NCBI GenBank assembly: GCA_051362555.1
Contig: CM120648.1
Location: 4,832,587 to 4,896,586, forward strand
DNA from: Lingula anatina
Taxonomy: Eukaryota > Animalia > Brachiopoda
Length of the DNA: 64,000 nucleotides
Reading direction: 5' to 3'
Shown here: one piece after another, positions 11,101 through 25,001 of the stretch
How positions within the stretch are numbered: the first letter of the stretch is position 1
How the letters are laid out: each line of letters starts with the position of its first letter
The notes under the pieces: generated by a model
Told to the model about the DNA's origin: nothing
Seen by the model: the letters and a program-made list of their open reading frames with translations, nothing else
Databases searched by the model: none
Made by a program: the position numbers and the translations under genes

Positions 11101-12997
11101 GATTGTTGACTCTTAGTTACCAAGCAAAGCTTTATAGTTTCGTTATCACCCATTTCCTCTTTCTTTTTCTATATGAAATCTATGTTTAGCAGCGGGTCTG
11201 CGATTCAAACTTCTGTAACAAAGTACAAACGCAGGCCCTGTCATCTCGTTCACATCCTTTTTTTGGTTTGATTTCCAGATTTTAAAATTTTAATTTTGTA
11301 CTGTACTGAGAGTGACTGTAAGATACACCTAGCGAAACCATTCACGTGTATCAAAGAGACGATCATCGGCTGCCTTTGATGAACACCAACTCATCATCAA
11401 CGGGTCACTCCCCGGGGAGCAGAACGTGCCTGCCGATGCGGGCGTTCATGGCTGTCTCTCCCAAGTCGTCCGTGGGAGCTAAAAAAGCCGTTTTTGTGTG
11501 TAAATACGCCAAGCGAAGCGGAGCAAAGCAATGGCCTACTGGCAACCTGCCCGCCTTCTCTCTCTCCCCTCTACCAACCAAGTACAATGCCCGCCGTGGC
11601 AGAGTAAATTCGCCTTTATGACATGTCTATAGCAAATACTGTGGAAGCTTCCACTTCTTCTTTAACTTATTGTAACTAGGCGGTAGCATTACCTTAAAGC
11701 ATTTGATAGTAAATGTTAGATGTAAACATTGAACAACTGACGGTTTCAAATTGTGGATATTCTCCTCTCTGTTCCTTAGGTGTCTTCTTGATGATTAATA
11801 CGGGTACAGCGCCGGTGGTCGTTGTACTATAAACAAAATGAAATCAAACCAAAAATGGAACTTTTTTATTATTAAATAGTAGTGTCATTTTCCCGTGCGA
11901 CTTATGCCGGTGGCCGCAATATTATCAGCAAAATAAGACCAAACAAAAATGGGATTTTTTTTAGAATTAAATAGTGGCGGAATTATCCCTTGAAATCCTA
12001 AACCTGATAAATAAGGGTAATTTTTTTACGCATAGAAGCTGTGGAAAGTTTGAACTTAAGTTGTCATTCCTTCCTTCATCGACACGTTCTTTCTGTCTGT
12101 GGATTAAAGCGACACCCAATAATGAAATTAATTGTTTTATCGCTGATGTAACAAATTTGGGTTTTCTATTTCTGGTTTGTATTTTTCTGGTTTATTGTGC
12201 CAATGTTATGTTGGTATCCCCTTAAACAACTGGGGGGGGGGGTCATGTCGTAGATTTCAGATATGTACAAACATTGCAAAAGTCTCTACTGACGTCTCTA
12301 TTATATTTACCATGCCACTAAGTATGGAGGAATACTCAAAACCAAATCAAAAATTTGAAGAATACGCATGCCTTTGGTGTCAATAACATTGTTTTCTAAA
12401 TATTTAGTTTGAAAAGGATCAACCGGTGTTTAAAAACAAAGAAATACTCCCGTCCGTAACTCGTCTATTTTTACCAGAACCATCCAGCGAAGAACGCCGA
12501 GTCGCTGAAAGCTTCCAGCGCAACCCCACCTGGATTTGCACGTGCAGAAACTCATTTGGCAGATTATTGACAACTTTGTTGACAAACACGCGTAAACAAA
12601 AGGTGCAAACACGAGGGGTAATACCGCCACGCGGAGGTGATTAGTACCCCTCTGTAATTATCTGCTTAAAACAGTTCGCACGTGCGCGTGAAAGCATTAA
12701 TGCCAAGAAGCAAAGCTCGCCGCGGCAGTTGGGTTTCTTAATGACGGAGAACCCTGCCTTTGTTGTTTACCTGTTACTAATCCGTCGTCACTTTTGGTCG
12801 ATTTGAGTCGTGAATATTTAGAAGTAATCAGGTAAAAAGGTGAGGATAGAAATCAGGCCAGGGCGACCCACAGGTGGAAGAGCCGTGTGTCCAAATATTT
12901 CAGATATTTAGAAAACAAGTGAACGAGAGAATTGTTCTACTTTTTATTAAGTTTCTTTCTTTGCCATGACATCACCAGGAAATCGTTATGTGAAGAG

Positions 12998-13278
12998 TGT
13001 AGTGATCCGGCATCGGTGTGTGGCTTGTCTTGGCCTCGATCCGAGTCGAGGCTGAGTGTCAGTTTGGGAGAAACTCGATAGCTGTAAGGAGTGGGTTACA
13101 GCGAGGAGCACTGAGAACAAAGGGCGACGCCATTACTGTGAAGCAAGATAGAGATAGAGGTTGGAATCCTGATTTCTAGTGGTTATCTATAGGAAAGGGA
13201 TTTCGTTACTGCTAAGGTAAGCAGATTATTAGTAGAAATATCCGGAGCTAGAGTTGATTAGCGTAAGGGATTTCTATA
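12998..13278 (+). repeat. 5' LTR (281 bp, TGTAG...CTATA)
   Basis: Matches 23345-23625 with no mismatch found by eye; immediately followed by the PBS. Confidence 0.96.
13214..13222 (+). promoter_or_regulatory. Candidate splice donor in LTR (AAG|GTAAGC, GT at 13217-13218)
   Basis: Near-consensus 5' splice site; would pair with the strong acceptor at 20668-20669 before ORF3. Confidence 0.6.
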
Positions 13279-13279
13279 T

Positions 13280-13290
13280 TGGTGGCAGCG
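13280..13290 (+). promoter_or_regulatory. Primer binding site, tRNA-Leu type
   Basis: TGGTGGCAGCG one base after the 5' LTR; complementary to the ...CGCUGCCACCA 3' end of eukaryotic tRNA-Leu. Confidence 0.85.
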
Positions 13291-13541
13291 AAAACAACGA
13301 GCCCACGTTGCTGAATAAAAGTTTAAAAACGAGTAGTTGTTTGTTTTTTCATACAAATAGCTGTTTTTCTAGTTTATTCAGCGGTTTGCTTAGGCAGACG
13401 TTACTGTTTTGTAGAAATTTTGCAAGTAACAATTAAATTGTGGGTGCATTATTTCTAGAGGGGGCTATATTTATATATTTTCAATAAAGATATATTTATA
13501 GTCGTTTGTGTTCTTCATTTTTATATATATTGATATTAAAT

Positions 13542-16025
13542 ATGGAGAATGTACATGTCATTAAAGTCAACTCGGCTGACGTTCAGGAGCTGTCACTAAT
13601 ACCGGGTGTTAGTGATAAAATAGCTGAAACTTTGGTGTCAGCGAGACAAAATGGTGGACAAATCACCAGGGAGTTATTGCAACTAATAACTCGTAAGAAG
13701 TTGACGGATGATGTGGTGGAGTTATTAGACTTTACTCCTAATACTACCCTCTCTACAGTACAGCAAGCCTCTGGAGGTAACACCAGCGCGGATCAGAAAA
13801 TGGTGTCACGGGAGCCCAGTAGTTCTTCGGGTTTCGGGATTGGGTGTTTATGGACTTCTACACCCATTCGGTCACCCTTGAGTGAGGTACCAAGGGCTGA
13901 CGAGAGGCGCATGGTCTCCACGCCTGTACAGACAGGAGAGGGGATGAGGGAAATGGTCTCCACTTCAGTGCAGACGGTGGTATCTACACAGACTGGAGAC
14001 AAGTCGGAGTTACATAGGAGGTATGTAAACCTGGAACAGGCAGGTGTTAACCAGGCACCTGGGGGGATTCCTGTGGGTTCCAGACAGGAATCTCGAGGGC
14101 CAGCTAGAAGGCCGTTGAGTAAAATTCCGTGGGGAATAACTCCTATTCCCGAGAATCCAGGGCATGGTGATGACACTGAAGTGAAAATTCCATTCACTCA
14201 GGATATGCGTATACCTGGAAGGAAGACAGAAACCAGCCAAGTGCGACAGGCTACTGTACACTGGAAAACAGAGCCAGTCCCAGCTTACACCCGAGGGAGT
14301 CATGAGAATTATGGTGCAATGTATCAGCCAGGTCCATTCACACAAGGCCAAAATGGACCGACTACTGGGGTCAGACATGTAACTTTGCAGCCAGGTGTGG
14401 TCACACGGGACCAGTGTGGACCGAGTCTTGCTTTTATGCAAGATGGGCAGCAGTCAGGTGGGTTCACACAACACCAGTGTGGATCGAATCTTGCTTTTAT
14501 GCAAGATGTGCATCAGCCAGGTGGGGTCACACGAGACCAGTATGGACCGAGCCTTGCTTGTGTGCAAGGCGGGCAGCAGCAAAGGGAGGTCACACGAGAC
14601 CAGTATGGACTGTACCGAGATGTCAGACCAACAGGGTGGCAGCCAGATCAGGTCACACTAGATCACTATGGACCGAGCCATGCTTATATGCATGGTGAAC
14701 AGCTGCCAGGTGAATTTACACTGAACCATGGTGGACCGAATCGTGAAAACTGTGGTCGGGGTCTAGAGCCATTCAGACAAGACTGGTTGAGACCGGACTA
14801 TGGTGAACCAGTACCAGTTACCGGTATCAGCACTCAAGGATATGACTGTGGGGGGCCATACCAGGCGCCAGTCATTTCTCAGAGGAGAGCTGATGTACCC
14901 TGGGAACCAGTTCCTACTAATGAGGCTTCTTACCCTATGGAAGTCGGAGGTAGAGGTGTCCAGGGAGGACATCGTGGTGTACAGGGAAGATATAGTGGTG
15001 TCAATGGAGGACACGATGGTGATCATAGGAGTCATGGTGGATGGGGATCTACAGTTAGCGCCCCAACACGGAAGTTTAACCCTCCAAAGAACTTAGTCTT
15101 TGATGGGCGTGGTAACTGGACTGCATTTAAGAGCTTATTTGTCAGACATGCAGTTCGTGAACAGTGGGATGATGCCTTGTCCCTCGATGGGTTATGTTGG
15201 TGCCTGCGGGGAAAAGCTCAGGATTACTATGCTATACTGAGTCAACGGGTAGGTGGCCTAACATACCAAGTGTTGCTGCATGAACTGGAGAAACGGTTCG
15301 GAGAGCGAGATACGCCAGCTACAGCACAGTCGCGTTTCCAGAGTTCAGTTCAGGAGTCTAATGAGTCGTTAGATGACTGGGCTGATCGTGTGTTAACTTT
15401 GGCAGGTCGTGCTTACGAGGGCTTGCCGGAATCATTCACTGATATGCAGGCGGTGAATCGATTTTGTGCTGGTTTATTGGACAAGGAAGCGGGGCATGCT
15501 ATTTATATGCGGAGTCCTCCAACTGTTCGTGAGGCAGTGCGTTTGGTGAGGATGCATCAGCAAATGTACCAGGTGATGGAACACACGGTGCCGAGGAGGG
15601 GTCGTCAGGGAAACCCGAGAGTAAATCAGGTAGCGACGGCCGAAATACCTCCAACACCTGAGATGTCCAGGTTGGTCCAGTGTATGGAGAACATGGAGAA
15701 ATCCATTAAATCTTTACAGCTGGATGCGAAAAAGAAAACACCTCCTAATCCGGATATGTCCAAGTGGGTCCAGCGAATGGAGAATATGGAGAAATCTATT
15801 AAGTCTCTACAACTGGATGCGAAAAAGAAGGCGATCGAGAAAAGTGGGTCGCCGAAGGCAGAAAATGGGTCCAAGTCTGAGAGTAGACCTATGGATGGGA
15901 CTTGTTTTAAATGCCGGGAAAAGGGACATTTTATCCGTGAGTGCCCGAGATGGGGAGATGCCTTGGAAAAGAGACAAGATAAGGTCTCAGGGGCGAAGCA
16001 GGGAAACGCCAAGGGGTCGAGGTAG
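13542..16025 (+). CDS. gag: Gag polyprotein with N-terminal helix-hairpin-helix (ComEA/HHH_3-like) domain, repeats, capsid-like region and CCHC knuckle
   Basis: First ATG at 13542 (the ORF track starts at an upstream TTG). KVNSADVQELSLIPGVSDKIAETLVSARQNGG is HhH-like. FDGRGNWTAFKSLF...WDD...LRGKA...LEKRFG...QESNESLDDWADRV...RFCAGL is typical retrotransposon capsid. CFKCREKGHFIREC at 15903-15944. Confidence 0.93.
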   Translation: MENVHVIKVNSADVQELSLIPGVSDKIAETLVSARQNGGQITRELLQLITRKKLTDDVVELLDFTPNTTLSTVQQASGGNTSADQKMVSREPSSSSGFGIGCLWTSTPIRSPLSEVPRADERRMVSTPVQTGEGMREMVSTSVQTVVSTQTGDKSELHRRYVNLEQAGVNQAPGGIPVGSRQESRGPARRPLSKIPWGITPIPENPGHGDDTEVKIPFTQDMRIPGRKTETSQVRQATVHWKTEPVPAYTRGSHENYGAMYQPGPFTQGQNGPTTGVRHVTLQPGVVTRDQCGPSLAFMQDGQQSGGFTQHQCGSNLAFMQDVHQPGGVTRDQYGPSLACVQGGQQQREVTRDQYGLYRDVRPTGWQPDQVTLDHYGPSHAYMHGEQLPGEFTLNHGGPNRENCGRGLEPFRQDWLRPDYGEPVPVTGISTQGYDCGGPYQAPVISQRRADVPWEPVPTNEASYPMEVGGRGVQGGHRGVQGRYSGVNGGHDGDHRSHGGWGSTVSAPTRKFNPPKNLVFDGRGNWTAFKSLFVRHAVREQWDDALSLDGLCWCLRGKAQDYYAILSQRVGGLTYQVLLHELEKRFGERDTPATAQSRFQSSVQESNESLDDWADRVLTLAGRAYEGLPESFTDMQAVNRFCAGLLDKEAGHAIYMRSPPTVREAVRLVRMHQQMYQVMEHTVPRRGRQGNPRVNQVATAEIPPTPEMSRLVQCMENMEKSIKSLQLDAKKKTPPNPDMSKWVQRMENMEKSIKSLQLDAKKKAIEKSGSPKAENGSKSESRPMDGTCFKCREKGHFIRECPRWGDALEKRQDKVSGAKQGNAKGSR

Positions 16026-19000
16026 GGGGCCTATCCTCGATCCGAGATGACGCTAGGTCAGACGTCAAAGAAACTGATGATAAGGCCCGAGAAAAAGGAT
16101 CTGAAGCAGAAAAGAACAAACCTGAACCAGAGGTGGTATATGTGAATCAGATTGGATCCGTATCCGACTACTCTTTAAAAATCAGAGTAGGTGATAAAAC
16201 AGTGAGGGCATTAGTGGATACCGGTGCTCGTGTCACCATTTTATCTGACAGTATCTACAATAGCTTGAAAAATCCGCCGAGAAAATTAAAGGATGTGCAG
16301 TTGTGGGCTGCAGGGCGGAAGATGGCTATGCCGGGTTTTATCGCAGGTCCGATAAAATTAAAAATTGGACACAAGTGGTATACGGAAACAGTATACGTGG
16401 CTCCTTTGGAGGAAGAGATGTTGCTGGGAGTCGACATATTGAGAGATCGGGGTCAAGCCATGATTGATGTTGGAAGAGGGATTCTGCACTTCGATGACAT
16501 GAGTTTAACGTTGGACTGTTGCCTGGAGAAGGGTGTTCCCCAGGTAGCACGCGTTATGGTGTCAGAGCGCCGGGTAATTCCTCCTAACTCTGTAGTCAGA
16601 GTGGCATGTAAAATGGATATGGACCTCGATGATTATGTCATAGAGCCAGTGGAGAGGGGCGCGTGTAATTTCTTGGTTCCAAGGGTTATACGTAATAGGG
16701 GGAGTGACCCTATTATGGTGCTGATTAACCCAAGTGACAGGTATAAGCTGCTACAGAAGGGGTCAGAAATTGGGAGGGCTTTTTCTTATGAAAAAGTCGT
16801 GACGTCTGGACAAGCGTTTGACGAACATGTGCAATGTGGTTCAGTTTCGACTGAGTCGAGGGTGTCTAGTACGACATCGAGTCAAACTGAAGAGGATGTG
16901 GTGAGAGTAAATTACTCTATTCCTGCACCGCGGAGGCCTAAGGTGAGACCAGCCGAAGGCGAGGGTGAAGAAAGGCCAGGGGTTCCTCCACATTTACAGA
17001 AGGTGTTCGAGGAATCGAGTACAGAGTTGAGCGAGGACCAGCAAGCTCAACTGGGTCAAGTACTGACCGAGTTTCAAGATGTGTTTGCCCAAAGTGAGTT
17101 TGACTTAGGTAATTTTACTGCCTTAGAACATACTATTGACACGGGGCAAGCGAGGCCGATCAAGCAGAGGATGCGGCGTACACCAGTGTGTTTTGCTAAT
17201 GAGGAGGAGGCTCATCTGCAGAAAATGATCCAAGCAGGGGTAATACAAGAATCCACATCGGATTGGGCGTCAGCGCCGGTGTTAATTCGTAAAAAAGATG
17301 GTAGCGTTCGTTACTGCATTGACTACCGTGCCTTGAATGAAGTTACCACTAAGGATGTATTCCCACTGCCACTGGTGGACAATTGTTTGGATACCTTGTC
17401 GGGTAGCGTTTTCTTTAGTAAGTTGGATGCAAACTCAGCTTATTGGCAGGTACCCATTCGAGAGGAGGATAGAAAGAAGACCGCGTTCATAACAAAGTAT
17501 GGATTGTATGAACACATTCGCATGGCGTTTGGTCTTTGTGGGGCACCAGCTACCTATGCCAGAATTATGAATTTGGTCTTTCGAGGTTTATCATGGAAGA
17601 CGGTGCTGGCGTTTCTGGACGATATAGTGGTGCTGGGTGCGAGTTTCGAGATTCATCTGCAGAATCTGCGTGAGGCTCTAATGAGGTTTAGAGCGTATGG
17701 GCTAAAGTTAAAGCCGAAGAAGTGTTCTTTCTTCCAAAGAAAGATCGAGTTTCTAGGTCGAGTAGTGACTGGGGACACCTTAGCCATGTCGGAGCATGAT
17801 ATCCAGGTGGTCAGAGATTGGCCGATGCCAACATGTGGAAAGGATGTCGAGAAATTTATGGGCCTAGCAAACTACCACAGGACGTTTATCAAGGACTTTT
17901 CCAAACTCGCTGCTCCACTATATGCCATGACTGGTAAGAACAATTTTCAGTGGGGTGAGGAGCAATCTGTGTCATTTAGATCACTGAAGGAAGCATTAAC
18001 TTCACCACCAGTGTTGGCTATTCCGAGGCAGGATGGCGAGTATATTTTGGACACAGATGCGAGCGAGTATGCCATTGGAGCAGAGCTGCTTCAGGTACAA
18101 GATGGCGAGGAAAAAGTTGTAGCTTACGGAAGCTACGGCCTCACGAAAGAGCAGAGGCGGTATTGTACAACACGTAAAGAGCTGCTTGCTGTTGTACGTT
18201 TCACCAGGCAGTATAGACACTATCTCCTGGGGAGGCCATTCATGGTGAGAACCGACCATTCAAGCTTGCGTTGGTTAATGAGGTTCAAGGAGCCGCAGGG
18301 TCAGTTGGCGCGATGGTTAGAGGAGCTGTCGCAGTTCAACATGGTTCTATCACATCGGGCAGGGCGACTTCATGCAAACGCGGATGCACTGTCAAGAGCT
18401 GGACACACGGGGCAGTGTTTAACGTTTGGGACAGGAGTACACCTTGGAGATCTACCCTGTGGAGGATGTGAATATTGTAAGCGTGCTCACTCAAACTGGG
18501 CCAGGTTTGAGGAGGAGGTTGATGATGTGGTGCCATTGGTGATCCGAGGGGAAAACCAGGGGGGTACCAGGAGCGTCGAAAGCGAAGAAACCTCAAGTGA
18601 CCGACAGAGTAACAGTGGCAAGACGGTAAACACTGTTATGGTTGACTCAGTGAGGCAGTTTTCAGAACCGGAGGTATTGGGGCCAGTGGTAGATACCTCG
18701 CCTGATGAAAAGGTGGAAGACATGCCTGAGTACCATATGTTGAGAGAGGTGATCGAGAATATCCCATGGGACCCAGGAAAATCGGTCCGAGTTAATGTGA
18801 TCACCACTCGTCAGCAGGCTAAAAAGATGAAAAGAACGCCTGAAGTGGGCTCTACTGGTGTAGAGTCGAGTTCAAAAGAAGTGGGCTCTACTGGCGTAGA
18901 GTCGAGATCAACTAAAGTGGACTCTAAGGATATAGAGTCGAGACCAGCTGCAGTGGGCTCTAATAGTACAGAGTCGAGGTCAACTGTGAAGGCTGAGAGT

Positions 19001-20557
19001 AAGAGTACCTCAGGGCTGCGCAGTTGGGGGTATTCAGTGGAAGAAGTGAAAGCGGCACAGAAAGCAGATCACGATGTGAATCTGATTAGGGAGTATGTGG
19101 ACAACGCCATTATTCCAAATCAGTCTACTCTATTCAGAGGGAGCAAGGAATTAAAGTCTTATTGGCTGGATAGAGAGATGTTTGTAATGATTGATGGTGT
19201 ACTGTATTGGTCAGATCCGAAGACTGACGATAAGAAGTTAGTGCTTCCACATGGATTGCGAGTTAAGGCAATCGAGTTACACCACTGTTTACCATCAGCA
19301 GGACATCAGGGAGTCTCTAGGACTAAAGAGAGACTTCGAGAACGTTTTTATTGGCACAAGTTAGGCCGAGATGTGGATAACTTTGTGCGAGGCTGCGCAA
19401 GTTGCAATCAAAATAAAAAGTCGGCAAGACATGGCCGGGGTGCTTTAACCGAGTTCCAGGCTGGAGAACCTATGGAACGTGTACACTTGGATTTTCTGGG
19501 TCCTCTACCGAAGAGCACCAGGGGAAATGAGTACATACTCATGATGGTTGACCAGTTTACCAAGTGGGTGGAGTGCATCCCGCTTCCATCGCAGTCTGCT
19601 GAGGAGACAGCGCAGGCGGCAGTCGAACAGTTTTTCTCACGGTTCGGGGTACCGTTTGAAATATACACGGATCAAGGAAGAAATTTTGATTCGAAGCTGT
19701 TCACTGAGGTGTGTAGGATATTGGAGATCCATAAAGCACGGACGACACCCTATCGCCCATCTTCCAATGGTCAGATTGAGAGGTACAATCGGACATTGAT
19801 GGACGCAGTGCGTTGCTTTACAGAGAGATCTCAAAACCAGTGGGATCTTCATCTACAGCAAATTGCCGGGGCTCTCAGGTCATCGGTCAACAGGATGACA
19901 GGTTTTACGGCTAACAAGCTGATGTTGGGCAGGGAAGTCAACACTCCTGCTGGAATAATGTTCCCACAGAAGGGAAGAGAGCCGAGTAGTACCGAGGGGT
20001 ATGTGGCTGAGTTAGAAGCCGACCTACAGAAGGCGCACGAGACTGCCCGAGGTAAGCTCAAAGTATCTTCTAAGCGTATGAAGCGGGATTACGACCTGAG
20101 GATTTTGGAGCGAACCTATGCGGTCGGGGATTCAGTTTACATACTGGATGCGGCCGGAGGCCGGGGGAAGTGTAAGAAACTATGTCCCCCGTGGAAGGGT
20201 CCGGGAGTCATCGTGGAGAGGCTGAGCTCGTATTTATACCGGGTGAAGGTAAGAAATGCGGTGTTCGTGGCCAATCATGACAGGTTAAAACCTTGTCGAG
20301 ACAGTGAGATACCTCTGTGGATCCAGCAATGGAGAAAAAATCCCGTGGTTGACTCTACAGTCAAAGGGGATGACAGAGTGTATTGTCGCTGTAGGCAGAA
20401 ATGGCAGGGCCGATTCATGATACAGTGCGATTATTGTAGTGAATGGTATCATGGGTCTTGTGTAAACATTACTGCGTCTGACGCCCTCTCGATAAAGAAG
20501 TACAAGTGTGAGGATTGCACACGTCGATTGGTGCGTCCGGGCCATAATCGTGTATAG
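15983..20557 (+). CDS. pol: Pol: aspartic protease - reverse transcriptase - RNase H - integrase - PHD finger (translated as Gag-Pol)
   Basis: ALVDTGA (D at 16217); RT WASAPVLIRKKDGSVRYCIDYRALN, KLDANSAYWQ, MAFGL, FLDD (17612-17623); RNase H LDTDAS...ELLAV...TDH...NADALSR; integrase H..GH..CASC zinc finger and LDFLGP/TDQG/GQIER core; C-terminal C4HC3 PHD at 20378-20518. Confidence 0.97.
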   Translation, partial: GLRGEAGKRQGVEVGGLSSIRDDARSDVKETDDKAREKGSEAEKNKPEPEVVYVNQIGSVSDYSLKIRVGDKTVRALVDTGARVTILSDSIYNSLKNPPRKLKDVQLWAAGRKMAMPGFIAGPIKLKIGHKWYTETVYVAPLEEEMLLGVDILRDRGQAMIDVGRGILHFDDMSLTLDCCLEKGVPQVARVMVSERRVIPPNSVVRVACKMDMDLDDYVIEPVERGACNFLVPRVIRNRGSDPIMVLINPSDRYKLLQKGSEIGRAFSYEKVVTSGQAFDEHVQCGSVSTESRVSSTTSSQTEEDVVRVNYSIPAPRRPKVRPAEGEGEERPGVPPHLQKVFEESSTELSEDQQAQLGQVLTEFQDVFAQSEFDLGNFTALEHTIDTGQARPIKQRMRRTPVCFANEEEAHLQKMIQAGVIQESTSDWASAPVLIRKKDGSVRYCIDYRALNEVTTKDVFPLPLVDNCLDTLSGSVFFSKLDANSAYWQVPIREEDRKKTAFITKYGLYEHIRMAFGLCGAPATYARIMNLVFRGLSWKTVLAFLDDIVVLGASFEIHLQNLREALMRFRAYGLKLKPKKCSFFQRKIEFLGRVVTGDTLAMSEHDIQVVRDWPMPTCGKDVEKFMGLANYHRTFIKDFSKLAAPLYAMTGKNNFQWGEEQSVSFRSLKEALTSPPVLAIPRQDGEYILDTDASEYAIGAELLQVQDGEEKVVAYGSYGLTKEQRRYCTTRKELLAVVRFTRQYRHYLLGRPFMVRTDHSSLRWLMRFKEPQGQLARWLEELSQFNMVLSHRAGRLHANADALSRAGHTGQCLTFGTGVHLGDLPCGGCEYCKRAHSNWARFEEEVDDVVPLVIRGENQGGTRSVESEETSSDRQSNSGKTVNTVMVDSVRQFSEPEVLGPVVDTSPDEKVEDMPEYHMLREVIENIPWDPGKSVRVNVITTRQQAKKMKRTPEVGSTGVESSSKEVGSTGVESRSTKVDSKDIESRPAAVGSNSTESRSTVKAESKSTSGLRSWGYSVEEVKAAQKADHDVNLIREYVDNAIIPNQSTLFRGSKELKSYWLDREMFVMIDGVLYWSDPKTDDKKLVLPHGLRVKAIELHHCLPSAGHQGVSRTKERLRERFYWHKLGRDVDNFVRGCASCNQNKKSARHGRGALTEFQAGEPMERVHLDFLGPLPKSTRGNEYILMMVDQFTKWVECIPLPSQSAEETAQAAVEQFFSRFGVPFEIYTDQGRNFDSKLFTEVCRILEIHKARTTPYRPSSNGQIERYNRTLMDAVRCFTERSQNQWDLHLQQIAGALRSSVNRMTGFTANKLMLGREVNTPAGIMFPQKGREPSSTEGYVAELEADLQKAHETARGKLKVSSKRMKRDYDLRILERTYAVGDSVYILDAAGGRGKCKKLCPPWKGPGVIVERLSSYLYRVKVRNAVFVANHDRLKPCRDSEIPLWIQQWRKNPVVDSTVKGDDRVYCRCRQKWQGRFMIQCDYCSEWYHGSCVNITASDALSIKKYKCEDCTRRLVRPGHNRV
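16001..16043 (+). promoter_or_regulatory. -1 programmed ribosomal frameshift signal (gag-pol)
   Basis: G_GGA_AAC heptamer in gag phase at 16001-16007, then a 6-nt spacer and a hairpin GGGTCGAGGTAGG/ggg/CCTATCCTCGATCC (16014-16043). The pol frame is -1 and open from 15983 (TAA at 15980-15982). Confidence 0.88.
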
Positions 20558-20635
20558 ATTAAGGTCGAGTAGAGGGTTAAGGTTGAGTGGAGATAAGAGT
20601 TTAATTAGCTAAGAGTTTAGCTTAAGTCAAATAAC

Positions 20636-20669
20636 TCTTACTCAAAATTCTTCTCTTTTTTCTTTTTAG
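20636..20669 (+). promoter_or_regulatory. Candidate 3' splice acceptor for ORF3
   Basis: CTTAC branch-point-like motif, then a pyrimidine tract TTCTTCTCTTTTTTCTTTTT and AG immediately before ATG 20670. The tract stands out in an otherwise purine-rich strand. Confidence 0.75.
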
Positions 20670-23072
20670 ATGGAAGAGCAGAAGTGGCTTAACCTTATTA
20701 AGCCGATCCAAGAGGCCTGCAAGGAGAAGAGGCTCCACCCAAGCCGGGAGTTGGTAAATGTGATTGCCAGCCGACCCATGGCCTTGCAGGGGGATGCTGA
20801 GGCACTGTTGCTGAAGCAGGTGGCACTCTCTAGGGAGAGAGATGCGGAGGCTTGGCGCAAAGATTGTGCCAAGGGCCTGTTGGCTGTAGGTTTTCAATCC
20901 TGCAGTTGGGTATGTGAGCATGTTGCCAGGGTTGCCACTCCCAGAAAAGGGAAGGGTACTCGAGAGGCGTGGCATGCCACATATCGAGATTTCCGATTGC
21001 AAGAGGATCCTACTATGGAGCATAGGAAGGATACAGTGACTCAGAGCACTGTGGTAAGAGGAAGTCCTGAAGCAGCAGTGCGAGGGGAGAGTGAGGAGTC
21101 GGGGTCAGTATCAGACAGCATACTGAGGACTCCCACTGAGTCAATGGAGGTGGACACACCTTCGAGTCCGGTGAGGAAGTCACCGAGGGCTACCCTTACC
21201 AGCTGGGGTAGTGAAATGGACTTGTGTGAAAAGATAACCTATGCTGAGGCGGTCAAGAAACCAAGTCCGAGTGGTGTGGTAGTGACACAGAGTCGAGACA
21301 AGTCAAGTAAGACTGGGGGCTCTTACCAACCACGGCCTAAGAGTCGAGTATGGTTAGTAAAGAAGACCAAGGACTCAACAACAAGGCAGGATGCACCTCC
21401 TAAGGGACCTTCAAAATTCACCAAGAAGGATGAGGAAAAAAGGTGTTTCCGATGTAAGAAAGTAGGGCATGTGGCTCGGAAGTGTCCAACTCTGTCCGAG
21501 GAAGAAAGGTGCTTCAGATGTTCAGAGCTGGGGCACATAGTCAAAGATTGCCCACTTTCAAGGAAAGCGGCCAAGGACAGGAAAGAAGTGTCTAAGGCGA
21601 GACGAGATGACTCCAGGGGGAGTTCATCGGGCAGGCGTGATGACTCCAGGGGGAGTTCATCCTATAAACCTGCGACAAGTGGTCTCGAGGAGCTGGGTAC
21701 ATGGGCCCATGCTAAGAGATCGAGGCAGAGTAGTAGCTCCAGTCATGGAGGAGTTACTAGTGCCGTGGCCACAGGAATTAGTGCGCCGAGTCCTGACTTG
21801 TGTCCTATTTTTGGATGCAATAGTCAGTTAACGGAGAAACACGCATGGAACAAACATATCCCTCCAGTGTTTCATCCCGTGTTCGACGGTAAGGGGATGG
21901 AAAAGAGAAGATTTTTGGCCCTTAATCTTCTAGCCACCCAGCTATTTGGAATGAACGCAAATATGGACAGGTTATGTCAAGCCTGCGATGTCATGGACCA
22001 GGGAGATCGGGAGATAGCTCCGAGTAGGAAAGAGGGTGTGGACAGCTTCATCCACGGCCTGGGGTTGTCAGGCGAGTATGCCCTCAGAGTGGGATCTCTC
22101 CTGTTGTGGAAGCCTTTGCTAAGCCTAATAGCGAAATTATGGCCGTCAGACCTGGAGGCGTATAGGAACACATGTTCCATAGAAGAGGAGGAAGAGCTGT
22201 CTATTCCTAAGCCTCCAGTAGGATACGACAGTCACTGTCACGTAGATCGTGTACGCCAGCACTTGGAGTTACCAACAACAGCTGGGTTACGGGAGGTCAT
22301 CGAGGCCAAGCAGGTGGATGACAAGGAGATAACAGTGTCAGGGGCCACTGTTATATTCTGCGACCCAGCAACCTACCCAAGTGCTGAGGAGGTGGCTACT
22401 CTGAAGGCAGAGGGAGCCGTGGTGTCTGTGGGTTGGCACCCCAGACACGAGTTTGACCCAGAGGGCTGGGCGAAGTTTGAACAGACAGTAAGCAACCCAG
22501 AGGTGTCTGTTCTGGGTGAGATTGGTGTAGATTACACTACCTCATCGTGGCAGTGGGAAGCTCAGTTTGAAGTCCTGGAAAGAGCTCTTACATTATTAAG
22601 AGAAGACCAGGTACTGGTGCTCCACTGTCGAGGGCCCAAGGATGACTCAGCTGGTGATTTGGTTTGGAGACATGTTTTGAACATTCTTCGATTAGCTGAG
22701 AATGTGAAAAGTGATCAGTTAATACACTGTCACTGTTTCACGGGGTCAAGGAGGATGGTAGAGAAGTGGGTACAGTATTTTCCCAATACTTACTTTGGAG
22801 CTACTGCCATCTTCAGGACGTATACGGATACGTCGAGGAGTAGGAGAGCGATAGAGATGTTACAGTGGATGCCTGCTGGCAGGTTATTGCTGGAAACTGA
22901 TGCCCCCTACTTCGGATTTCCGACAAGGAGTAAGTCCACTCCAGCTTTCCTGGGGAAAGTAGCGGAAGTCGTTGCAAAAATTCGTGGGTGTGACTGGGAA
23001 GATATTCTCAAGATCACCGAGGAGAATGGGCGTCGGTTATATCTAGACCGACTGGGGCCCAGTGTGGAGTAA
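20670..23072 (+). CDS. ORF3: 800-aa protein with 2x CCHC zinc knuckles, a C2H2-like motif and a C-terminal TatD-family deoxyribonuclease
   Basis: CFRCKKVGHVARKC and CFRCSELGHIVKDC (21444-21551); CPIFGC...HAWNKH. TatD motifs in order: DSHCH (from 22221), VGWHP, GEIGVDY, VLHCR, HCFTG, LLETDAPY, EN..RLY. No signal peptide or TM segment seen. Confidence 0.92.
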   Translation: MEEQKWLNLIKPIQEACKEKRLHPSRELVNVIASRPMALQGDAEALLLKQVALSRERDAEAWRKDCAKGLLAVGFQSCSWVCEHVARVATPRKGKGTREAWHATYRDFRLQEDPTMEHRKDTVTQSTVVRGSPEAAVRGESEESGSVSDSILRTPTESMEVDTPSSPVRKSPRATLTSWGSEMDLCEKITYAEAVKKPSPSGVVVTQSRDKSSKTGGSYQPRPKSRVWLVKKTKDSTTRQDAPPKGPSKFTKKDEEKRCFRCKKVGHVARKCPTLSEEERCFRCSELGHIVKDCPLSRKAAKDRKEVSKARRDDSRGSSSGRRDDSRGSSSYKPATSGLEELGTWAHAKRSRQSSSSSHGGVTSAVATGISAPSPDLCPIFGCNSQLTEKHAWNKHIPPVFHPVFDGKGMEKRRFLALNLLATQLFGMNANMDRLCQACDVMDQGDREIAPSRKEGVDSFIHGLGLSGEYALRVGSLLLWKPLLSLIAKLWPSDLEAYRNTCSIEEEEELSIPKPPVGYDSHCHVDRVRQHLELPTTAGLREVIEAKQVDDKEITVSGATVIFCDPATYPSAEEVATLKAEGAVVSVGWHPRHEFDPEGWAKFEQTVSNPEVSVLGEIGVDYTTSSWQWEAQFEVLERALTLLREDQVLVLHCRGPKDDSAGDLVWRHVLNILRLAENVKSDQLIHCHCFTGSRRMVEKWVQYFPNTYFGATAIFRTYTDTSRSRRAIEMLQWMPAGRLLLETDAPYFGFPTRSKSTPAFLGKVAEVVAKIRGCDWEDILKITEENGRRLYLDRLGPSVE

Positions 23073-23330
23073 GAATACCACGACGCTGGCCAGGAGGGGT
23101 ACGACCTGGTCAGGAGAAGAGGCTGGGAAGGAGTTTTCCTAGTGATGAGTACCGTGTATTGATTCCTTGGCTGGTCAGCTTGGGCTGATCGAGAAGCGAC
23201 AAGGGATCTGGTAGAGAGAATGGAGTGGGCGGTCCTTGGCTGGGTCAGCATGGGCTGATCGAGTAGTGATACAAGGATCGTAAGAATGTGTTGTTGGTGT
23301 TGGATTGTAATGACTACCTCCAATCCAGAT

Positions 23331-23344
23331 AAAGTGGGGAGGAG
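23331..23344 (+). promoter_or_regulatory. Polypurine tract
   Basis: AAAGTGGGGAGGAG directly abutting the 3' LTR. Confidence 0.85.
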
Positions 23345-23625
23345 TGTAGTGATCCGGCATCGGTGTGTGGCTTGTCTTGGCCTCGATCCGAGTCGAGGCT
23401 GAGTGTCAGTTTGGGAGAAACTCGATAGCTGTAAGGAGTGGGTTACAGCGAGGAGCACTGAGAACAAAGGGCGACGCCATTACTGTGAAGCAAGATAGAG
23501 ATAGAGGTTGGAATCCTGATTTCTAGTGGTTATCTATAGGAAAGGGATTTCGTTACTGCTAAGGTAAGCAGATTATTAGTAGAAATATCCGGAGCTAGAG
23601 TTGATTAGCGTAAGGGATTTCTATA
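23345..23625 (+). repeat. 3' LTR (281 bp)
   Basis: Copy of 12998-13278; followed by TSD AGAG. Confidence 0.96.
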
Positions 23626-25001
23626 AGAGGAAATGCGTTTATCATATTATTGCTCCTGAAGACGGCAATACGTTTTATAATGTTTTTGTTATCCTTTTTC
23701 GGAGTCAGTACCCGGGCCTGTGCTATCTATGATGTCTCTAGACTAATTCCAGGATTAAACTGAAATGAAATTTATTGTCCTAGAGGAAATATGGAGCAGC
23801 AATATTGAAGTCAGAACTAAGTAGAGATAAGTGATAAGGTGTCGGTTTTCTGGATAAATGATAGAAAAATTATTAAAGAATTTATTGTTGATAGCAACAA
23901 GGAGTTGTATCATAAACCTCCTTGATAAAAACATAAGAAAAGGTTAACAAGTGCACGGAAGGCAGCAACAATTCTTTATTTAATATAATATGTTGCCGCC
24001 TTTTGAAAATTGGAAAAAAATCTATAACCATGGATTTGTGAGAAGAAAAAGCACAGAATTTAATCTCCACACCACTCCCAAACCTAAATAACCTACATCG
24101 AAGACATTTATGCTAACAGGGTCTGCTTCAAATTAGATCCCAACCGAAATGTTTTGTCTTCTTAGACTTTTCGCAATTCAATTCAGTATAATGTCTTTAT
24201 TAAATTTGATTCATTGGCACCTCCTGTTCCCTAAGCCGGGCTGCATGCACGGTATAATAGATGGCACGCGGTCCACGCGAGGCAAATCTCCTCGTGCCGG
24301 GAAACGGGTAGACGCCGGGCCCATATTGCGAGGAAATTTGTTCAAAAATTGAGATAACGTTAAGCCCATTGGACGCTGGCATTCTTTGGGTTCTAAATCA
24401 ATCTTTATGGAGCCATCGTGATATCTTCGAAGGGTAATCCCTTCATTCTTTCTCGAGACTTTTTGTGTAGATTTATAACGGGTATCAAGGCAATTAGCGC
24501 CCCGCCTGCCCTCATGGATGATGCATTTATCTATCCATGTGTCTGGCCCCTCTATCTGGCAAAGGCCTTCAATGAGGCACATGCATAATGATACGCCATA
24601 ATGTCAATTTAAATAATATCAGTATAAGCAAAATCGCAAGAGGTAAGCTTTAAAACAAATTTCTCATGATTGTTATATATTTATCATTCCCCGAAATGTG
24701 CCATCCACCGCATCGCATTCTCTGAGCCAGATGTATGTGTATTCATACAACAGACCAGTTTTAGGCACAGAGTGGGCGGTATTGACAACAGCCATGCCCT
24801 GTATGTGTATATTTCAAAGCAATAGATAATACGCACAAACGTTCCCTCGTCTCCCTGTATCTCGGAATGCGTTATCGTGGTTCACGCCATGTTTGACAAA
24901 AACCTGGAGTAAAACATCTAATAACCACGCGAAGAGAGCAAATTCAGATTGTAAAGCGGTTCTACTTAACCGCTGACCAACTGCCCTGGAATGTTCGAAT
25001 G

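What the first reader, a model, noticed from the sequence alone, without database searches (positions are those of the whole stretch)
13214..20672. Retrovirus-style spliced subgenomic mRNA predicted for the TatD ORF
Seen: AAG|GTAAGC in the 5' LTR (GT at 13217). Directly before the ORF3 start there is CTTAC, a ~20-nt pyrimidine tract and AG|ATG (20668-20672), in a strand that is otherwise purine-rich. Established: env of retroviruses and Drosophila gypsy is made from such a spliced RNA. Inference: ORF3 has a dedicated expression route (a ~7.45-kb intron removing PBS, gag and pol), arguing it is a selected gene rather than a passenger. The spliced RNA would lack the PBS and so could not be reverse-transcribed.
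Basis: partly seen in the sequence, partly recalled or inferred. Interest (0 to 1): 0.72.

Follow-up and report, generated by a model that had tools for sequence, protein, structure and literature searches.

The report
Spliced message for retrotransposon nuclease gene
A young jumping gene in a lamp-shell genome carries an extra nuclease gene behind a textbook splice acceptor, and a splice donor in its terminal repeat is used in RNA, so the nuclease is likely made from its own spliced message as retroviral envelope genes are, though that exact join was not seen.

Summary
Observation confirmed; interpretation partly supported. The window holds an intact Ty3/gypsy element (identical 281-bp LTRs) from Lingula anatina with a TatD-nuclease ORF3. 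The acceptor before ORF3 is the best of 1,008 AGs in the element and beats 500 of 500 shuffles. The LTR donor is weak statistically (5.9% of shuffles) but used: in one RNA run 21 reads leave the element exactly at 13216 and 4 exactly at a pol donor (20248), all into one sequence absent from the window. The predicted 13216-to-20670 join was not listed in 8 runs (475 reads laid, threshold 3). Sense ORF3 RNA was nearly absent, so power was low, but the one informative run spliced past ORF3. Relatives support the acceptor indirectly, and ORF3 differences between copies are mostly silent (28 of 42). An in-frame stop right before the ATG rules out readthrough. Spliced ORF3 messages are the norm for LTR elements; the in-LTR donor is foamy-virus-like, and TatD cargo was not found in print. 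This scan reported the same layout before in a sea urchin. Likelihood of the env-like message about 0.7.

The parts
12994..12997 (+). Target-site duplication (AGAG), left copy; right copy 23626-23629
12998..13278 (+). 5' LTR, 281 bp, TG...TA ends, identical to the 3' LTR, holds no ATG and no AATAAA/ATTAAA
13059..13064 (+). Initiator-like hexamer TCAGTT, candidate transcription start (inferred; consensus recalled)
   Evidence: no start site was resolved by reads
13214..13222 (+). Splice donor AAG|GTAAGC in the LTR; used in RNA
   Evidence: 21 reads of X5 end exactly at 13216, 5' or 3' LTR not separable
13280..13290 (+). Primer-binding-site-like TGG motif just behind the 5' LTR, downstream of the donor
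   Evidence: sequence; tRNA partner not tested
13542..16025 (+). gag, 827 aa: HhH, retrotransposon gag, CCHC knuckle
15983..20557 (+). pol open frame, 1,524 codons: protease, RT, RNase H, integrase, C-terminal PHD finger
20246..20254 (+). Second donor AAG|GTAAGA inside pol, phase 0, upstream of the PHD finger; used in RNA
   Evidence: 4 reads of X5 end exactly at 20248; phase
20637..20641 (+). Branch-point-like CTTAC
   Evidence: use inferred
20648..20669 (+). 20-nt pyrimidine tract and acceptor AG; the AG is part of an in-frame TAG that closes the ORF3 frame upstream
20670..23072 (+). ORF3, 800 aa: family-specific N-terminal domain, two CCHC knuckles, Cys/His region, group II (HxH) TatD nuclease domain
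23331..23344 (+). Polypurine tract
   Evidence: sequence
23345..23625 (+). 3' LTR with the twin donor (GT at 23564)

Best explanation
This is an intact Ty3/gypsy LTR retrotransposon whose third gene, a TatD nuclease, is likely translated from a separate spliced message that joins a working donor in the LTR (13216) to the strong acceptor directly before the ORF3 start (20670). Shown: the element's anatomy, the acceptor's strength, use of the LTR donor in RNA, absence of any ATG in the LTR exon, an in-frame stop right before the ORF3 ATG, and purifying selection on ORF3. Inferred: transcription starts in the 5' LTR upstream of the donor; unspliced RNA serves gag-pol and packaging; splicing removes PBS, gag and pol, makes the ORF3 ATG the first one and puts an A at -3 in place of a T; the message cannot be primed for reverse transcription; splicing is inefficient or tissue-limited. 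A by-product is that the same donor splices out of the element into host exons. What the nuclease does is untested; my leading guess is processing of the element's own RNA:DNA or single-stranded DNA intermediates.
For: Acceptor best of 1,008 AGs, above 500 of 500 shuffles. LTR donor used by 21 reads and pol donor by 4, both ending exactly at AG|GTAAG sites and running into the same outside sequence, which marks splicing rather than a DNA break; only 3 such sites lie in the laid stretch. No ATG in 12998-13216 (0.4% of 20,000 shuffles) nor before the gag ATG (0 of 5,000). ORF3 is out of frame with pol and closed by TAG at 20667, so readthrough or a frameshift cannot reach it. Two database gene models from diverged Lingula families join integrase directly, or with two residues between, to the ORF3 Met, implying a predicted acceptor at the same spot (P0097, P0119). 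In 7 relatives with in-frame text before the conserved Met the last 9 residues are pyrimidine-codon-rich: 0.616 against 0.46-0.52, p 0.007 on the strictest of four nulls. 28 of 42 listed ORF3 differences are silent against 0.30 expected, and 2 of 2 listed indels are 3 nt. LTR-element ORF3s are said to be typically made from spliced messages (PMC5408684).
Against: No joint to 20670 was listed in 8 of 8 runs laid (475 reads; listing needs 3 reads). In X5, the only run with clear splicing, both donors bypass the ORF3 acceptor, and sense depth is 0 in 6 of 6 inner ORF3 bins against a mean of 0.94 over 21 gag-pol bins; that copy may lack ORF3, which cannot be told. The donor motif is not rare and its use may be at a 3' or solo LTR. 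The start site is unmapped. Support from relatives is indirect: gene models are predictions, the 7 proteins are not fully independent, and compatibility with a YAG is uninformative (70% of random tails). A variant lacking ORF3 is transcribed in X7 (4 reads).
Confidence: 0.7

Rival explanations
1. The ORF3 acceptor is served mainly by the pol donor at 20249: a 421-nt intron removes the PHD finger and fuses integrase in frame to ORF3.
For: The donor is used in RNA (4 reads) and is phase 0, as is the acceptor.
Confidence: 0.08
2. The acceptor is real but takes another upstream partner: a different donor in the leader or gag, a host exon, or a trans-spliced leader.
For: Only the acceptor stands out statistically; in errantiviruses the acceptor is conserved but no donor is (PMC13669377); other 8-of-9 donors exist.
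Against: The LTR donor is the most used site seen (21 reads) and gives an ATG-free first exon; no loose ends were listed before 20670 among the rows shown (5 rows not shown).
Confidence: 0.1
3. ORF3 is driven by an internal promoter near the end of pol, and the pyrimidine tract is a start-site element or spacer rather than an acceptor.
For: Foamy viruses drive accessory genes from an internal promoter (PMC3185757); no junction seen.
Against: Branch-like motif, AG-free zone, tract and AG stand in the order and spacing of a 3' splice site; no pile of read starts was listed (low depth).
Confidence: 0.08
4. The sites are leftovers or chance and ORF3 is an unexpressed passenger.
For: Sense ORF3 RNA is near zero in 5 stranded runs, and an ORF3-less variant is transcribed.
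Against: Silent-biased differences, frame-keeping indels, invariant active-site residues in 28 relatives at 25-35% identity.
Confidence: 0.04

Closest known systems
env subgenomic mRNA of errantiviruses (Drosophila gypsy, Kuruka) and retroviruses
   Same: Third ORF behind pol with a dedicated acceptor at its start; made from a spliced subgenomic mRNA (PMC13669377, passages).
   Different: ORF3 is a TatD nuclease, not an envelope; the donor lies inside the LTR, upstream of the PBS; the join is not yet seen here.
Foamy-virus major splice donor
   Same: Donor inside the LTR, so present at both ends of the element (PMC3185757 passages; PMC3694450 abstract).
   Different: A Ty3/gypsy element; no AATAAA/ATTAAA in the LTR, so the U1-based control of LTR polyadenylation is not shown; R region unmapped.
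Juno and Vesta LTR retrotransposons of bdelloid rotifers
   Same: Non-env enzymatic ORF3, including a 3'-5' exonuclease with intact catalytic residues (PMC5408684, passages).
   Different: Their nuclease is DEDDy-type, not TatD (0 mentions of TatD); the paper reports no clear departure from neutrality, whereas here differences are silent-biased.
Cer1 CERV of C. elegans
   Same: Non-env accessory protein in the env position made from a spliced mRNA (PMC10309623, passages).
   Different: CERV is a five-exon product sharing exons with gag and acts in RNA export; no nuclease.

Membership tests
Ty3/gypsy LTR retrotransposon | Two direct LTRs with target-site duplication, PBS and PPT | tested here: met
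Ty3/gypsy LTR retrotransposon | gag then pol in the order protease, RT, RNase H, integrase | tested here: met
env-type spliced subgenomic mRNA | Separate ORF behind pol with a 3' splice site at its start | tested here: met
env-type spliced subgenomic mRNA | Functional donor near the 5' end of the element | tested here: met
   21 reads end at 13216; which LTR is unknown
env-type spliced subgenomic mRNA | RNA joining that donor to the ORF3 acceptor | tested here: inconclusive
   none listed in 8 runs, 475 reads, threshold 3, almost no sense ORF3 RNA
Errantivirus (env-bearing gypsy) | ORF3 encodes an envelope glycoprotein | tested here: not met
   Pfam finds only TatD and CCHC
Foamy-virus-type LTR donor | Donor inside the LTR | tested here: met
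   13217 lies in 12998-13278
Foamy-virus-type LTR donor | Canonical poly(A) signal in the LTR downstream of the donor | tested here: not met
   no AATAAA/ATTAAA in the LTR; nearest at 13314 and 13483 in the leader
Foamy-virus-type LTR donor | U1 binding suppresses 5' polyadenylation | not testable with these tools
   needs experiment
TatD nuclease, group II | TatD domain with HxH motif and conserved Glu, His, His, Asp | tested here: met
   Pfam E 2.8e-38; H522, H524, E617, H652, H688, D744 invariant in 28 of 28 aligned; HxH group from PMC10085689; best PDB match YcfH
TatD nuclease, group II | Nuclease activity | not testable with these tools
   needs assay
Juno/Vesta ORF3 types | DEDDy exonuclease or GDSL esterase ORF3 | tested here: not met

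The most novel reading that the evidence does not exclude
One acceptor, two donors: the LTR donor gives a free TatD nuclease from a message that cannot be reverse-transcribed, and the phase-0 pol donor swaps the integrase's PHD finger for the nuclease, so a widespread invertebrate gypsy clade switches its integrase tail by alternative splicing while its LTR donor also traps host genes.
Probability: 0.1. Interest if true: 0.75.

Novelty: new variant of a known kind. Interest (0 to 1): 0.45.

Why it matters
A dedicated splice route plus purifying selection would make TatD a real accessory gene of an invertebrate gypsy lineage, a nuclease cargo not found in the papers searched. It would also mean that some database 'host' TatD genes, such as this RefSeq locus, are transposon genes. 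The LTR donor is shown to splice out of the element, so insertions of this family can rewire host transcripts. The splicing strategy itself is the expected one for an ORF3 and would not surprise a specialist.

Tried and rejected
No whole genome is held, so copies could not be compared as DNA. No indexed RNA holder was listed; raw-read runs of the same species label were laid instead, 8 of 9, 6-30% of each read. The sequence beyond the two donors is not in the window and no matching first exon was found by a rough motif scan. Whole-ORF3 and alignment protein searches returned only the query. Viral contigs: 0 relatives among 159 stretches. Metagenome scan: 80 loci kept of 562; only L002 scored as a family member, the other 79 far lower and 0 of 80 with a pol match. 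L002 is a decayed 3' fragment with a PPT and donor-like motifs in its putative LTR, but that LTR does not align to ours (42 of 300 shuffles score as high), so donor conservation remains untested. The YAG-compatibility test was dropped as uninformative. The representative-protein search and structure prediction never ran because the queue was full. Readthrough or frameshift into ORF3 rejected. DNA rearrangement as the source of the X5 loose ends rejected: two ends at two GT donors share one partner. Supplements of the papers were not read.

Full report
What is there. The window holds a complete Ty3/gypsy LTR retrotransposon at 12998-23625: two identical 281-bp LTRs with TG...TA ends, an AGAG target-site duplication, a PBS-like motif at 13280 and a polypurine tract at 23331-23344. 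gag (13542-16025) carries HhH, gag and CCHC matches; pol (open from 15983 to 20557) carries protease, RT, RNase H, integrase and a C-terminal PHD finger; ORF3 (20670-23072, 800 aa) carries CCHC knuckles and a TatD domain. ORF3 is identical to a RefSeq protein labelled Lingula anatina LOC106158303. Identical LTRs mean a recent insertion.

The observation. Every coordinate checks out. The acceptor has 20 pyrimidines in the 21 bases before AG, the best of 1,008 AGs in the element (next 16); 0 of 500 dinucleotide shuffles reach it. A branch-like CTTAC lies 28-32 nt upstream inside an AG-free zone. The donor matches 8 of 9 consensus positions (consensus recalled) but ties with five other sites and its 3' LTR twin, and appears in 5.9% of LTR shuffles, so sequence alone does not single it out.

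RNA. Nine runs with the same species label were listed, none indexed; 8 were laid, 6-30% of each, giving 184 reads and 291 reads. No joint from 13216 to 20670 was listed; listing needs 3 reads from 2 starts. In run X5 (71 of 116 reads at 99% or better) 21 reads stop matching exactly at 13216 and 4 exactly at 20248, and both sets continue into the same sequence, which is not in the window. Both ends are AG|GTAAG sites, of which the laid stretch has three. This is splicing, and it shows that the LTR donor works. It also fixes the strand: first mate on minus is sense. It does not show which LTR donates. Against the reading: in X5 both donors bypass the ORF3 acceptor, and sense depth is zero in 6 of 6 inner ORF3 bins while 17 of 21 gag-pol bins have depth. 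Either the expressed copy lacks ORF3, as does a variant seen in X7 (joint 20549 to 23084, 4 reads), or the acceptor is skipped in that tissue. In the other stranded runs sense ORF3 depth is below 1 in every bin, so they had little power.

Why a splice is needed. ORF3 starts 112 nt behind the pol stop, in another frame, with an in-frame TAG immediately before its ATG, so readthrough or frameshifting cannot reach it. The LTR holds no ATG, nor does the leader before gag (0.4% of 20,000 and 0 of 5,000 shuffles), so a message spliced at 13216 would open with the ORF3 ATG, with A instead of T at -3 (Kozak rule recalled). An initiator-like TCAGTT at 13059 would give a first exon of about 156 nt; this is inference, as no start site was resolved.

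Relatives. A search with residues 375-800 gave 95 hits; 28 were aligned and share, at 25-35% identity, the TatD metal-site residues, a Cys/His region and mostly an N-terminal domain that begins at the window's Met. Two of 139 proteins held match pol: both are Lingula gene models from diverged families that join integrase to the ORF3 Met directly or with two residues between. They show linkage of TatD to gypsy pol in other families and imply a predicted acceptor at the same place; they are predictions, not transcripts. Seven proteins, one per cluster, have 8 or more in-frame residues before the conserved Met, which I placed by alignment; their last 9 residues favour pyrimidine-rich codons (0.616 against 0.46-0.52; p 0.007 against host DNA, 1e-4 or less against three other nulls). 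They are not fully independent. No relative could be read as DNA across the acceptor. One metagenome locus of 80 (L002) is a decayed family member with donor-like motifs in a putative LTR, but the LTRs do not align.

Selection. From the 40 of 75 and 40 of 198 difference rows shown, after dropping 8 rows in the 3' UTR, 42 distinct differences fall in ORF3; 28 are silent against 0.30 expected (p about 1e-6), none makes a stop, and both listed indels are 3 nt. This supports a selected gene, on a partial list.

Mechanism. Most likely (0.7) the 5' LTR transcript is either left unspliced for gag-pol and packaging or spliced from 13216 to 20670, giving a PBS-less message for free TatD protein. Rivals: another upstream partner (0.1), an integrase-ORF3 fusion through the phase-0 pol donor (0.08), an internal promoter (0.08), an unexpressed passenger (0.04). 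The nuclease has the HxH motif of group II TatD enzymes, which have exonuclease and AP-endonuclease activity (PMC10085689, passages); TATDN2 is reported to resolve R-loops (PMC10711561, search listing only). A role on the element's own nucleic-acid intermediates is a guess.

Comparison. Spliced ORF3 messages are known for errantivirus env (PMC13669377, passages) and Cer1 CERV (PMC10309623, passages), and are called typical of LTR-element ORF3s (PMC5408684, passages), where DEDDy exonuclease cargo is described. A donor inside the LTR is the foamy-virus arrangement (PMC3185757, passages; PMC3694450, abstract), but no canonical poly(A) signal lies in this LTR. Searches for TatD with retrotransposon, transposable element, gypsy, or LTR/Lingula (listings only) and term look-ups in PMC5408684 and PMC6338049 found no description of TatD as LTR cargo; Repbase and subscription journals are outside the library, and supplements were not read. 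Unchecked notes of this scan describe the same layout and a similar acceptor in a sea urchin; nothing was noted for this genome or by sequence.

Verdict. Real sites, a proven donor, a likely but unproven env-like message for an unusual cargo gene: a new variant of a known kind, interest 0.45.

Noticed in passing
window 13216 and 20248 (reads of run X5): Both donors splice into one non-element sequence absent from the window; its open frame recalls the second exon of the Golgi pH regulator GPR89 (recalled, untested), which would mean a family copy acts as a gene trap or alternative first exon.
   Followed up: partly
window 20556-23335: In runs X1-X5 most reads over ORF3 lie in the antisense direction and largely come from diverged copies, while gag-pol reads are sense; the source (host read-through, piRNA precursor or a 3' LTR antisense promoter) is unknown.
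   Followed up: no
window 20549-23084 (reads of run X7): A transcribed variant lacks all of ORF3 and its acceptor, with other letters at the joint; probably an ORF3-less DNA subfamily.
   Followed up: no
window 13542-13710: gag begins with a helix-hairpin-helix motif (Pfam HHH_3, above its cut-off), unusual for a gypsy gag.
   Followed up: no
window 13314 and 13483: Two AATAAA hexamers lie in the leader just behind the 5' LTR donor while the LTR has none; U1 at the donor could guard against early cleavage there (speculation).
   Followed up: no
window 14325-14746 and 15643-15828: gag holds an in-frame 63-nt tandem array and a 93-nt duplication.
   Followed up: no
P0138: A family ORF3 is labelled as a bacterial MAG TatD hydrolase, probably animal host DNA in a symbiont bin.
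   Followed up: no
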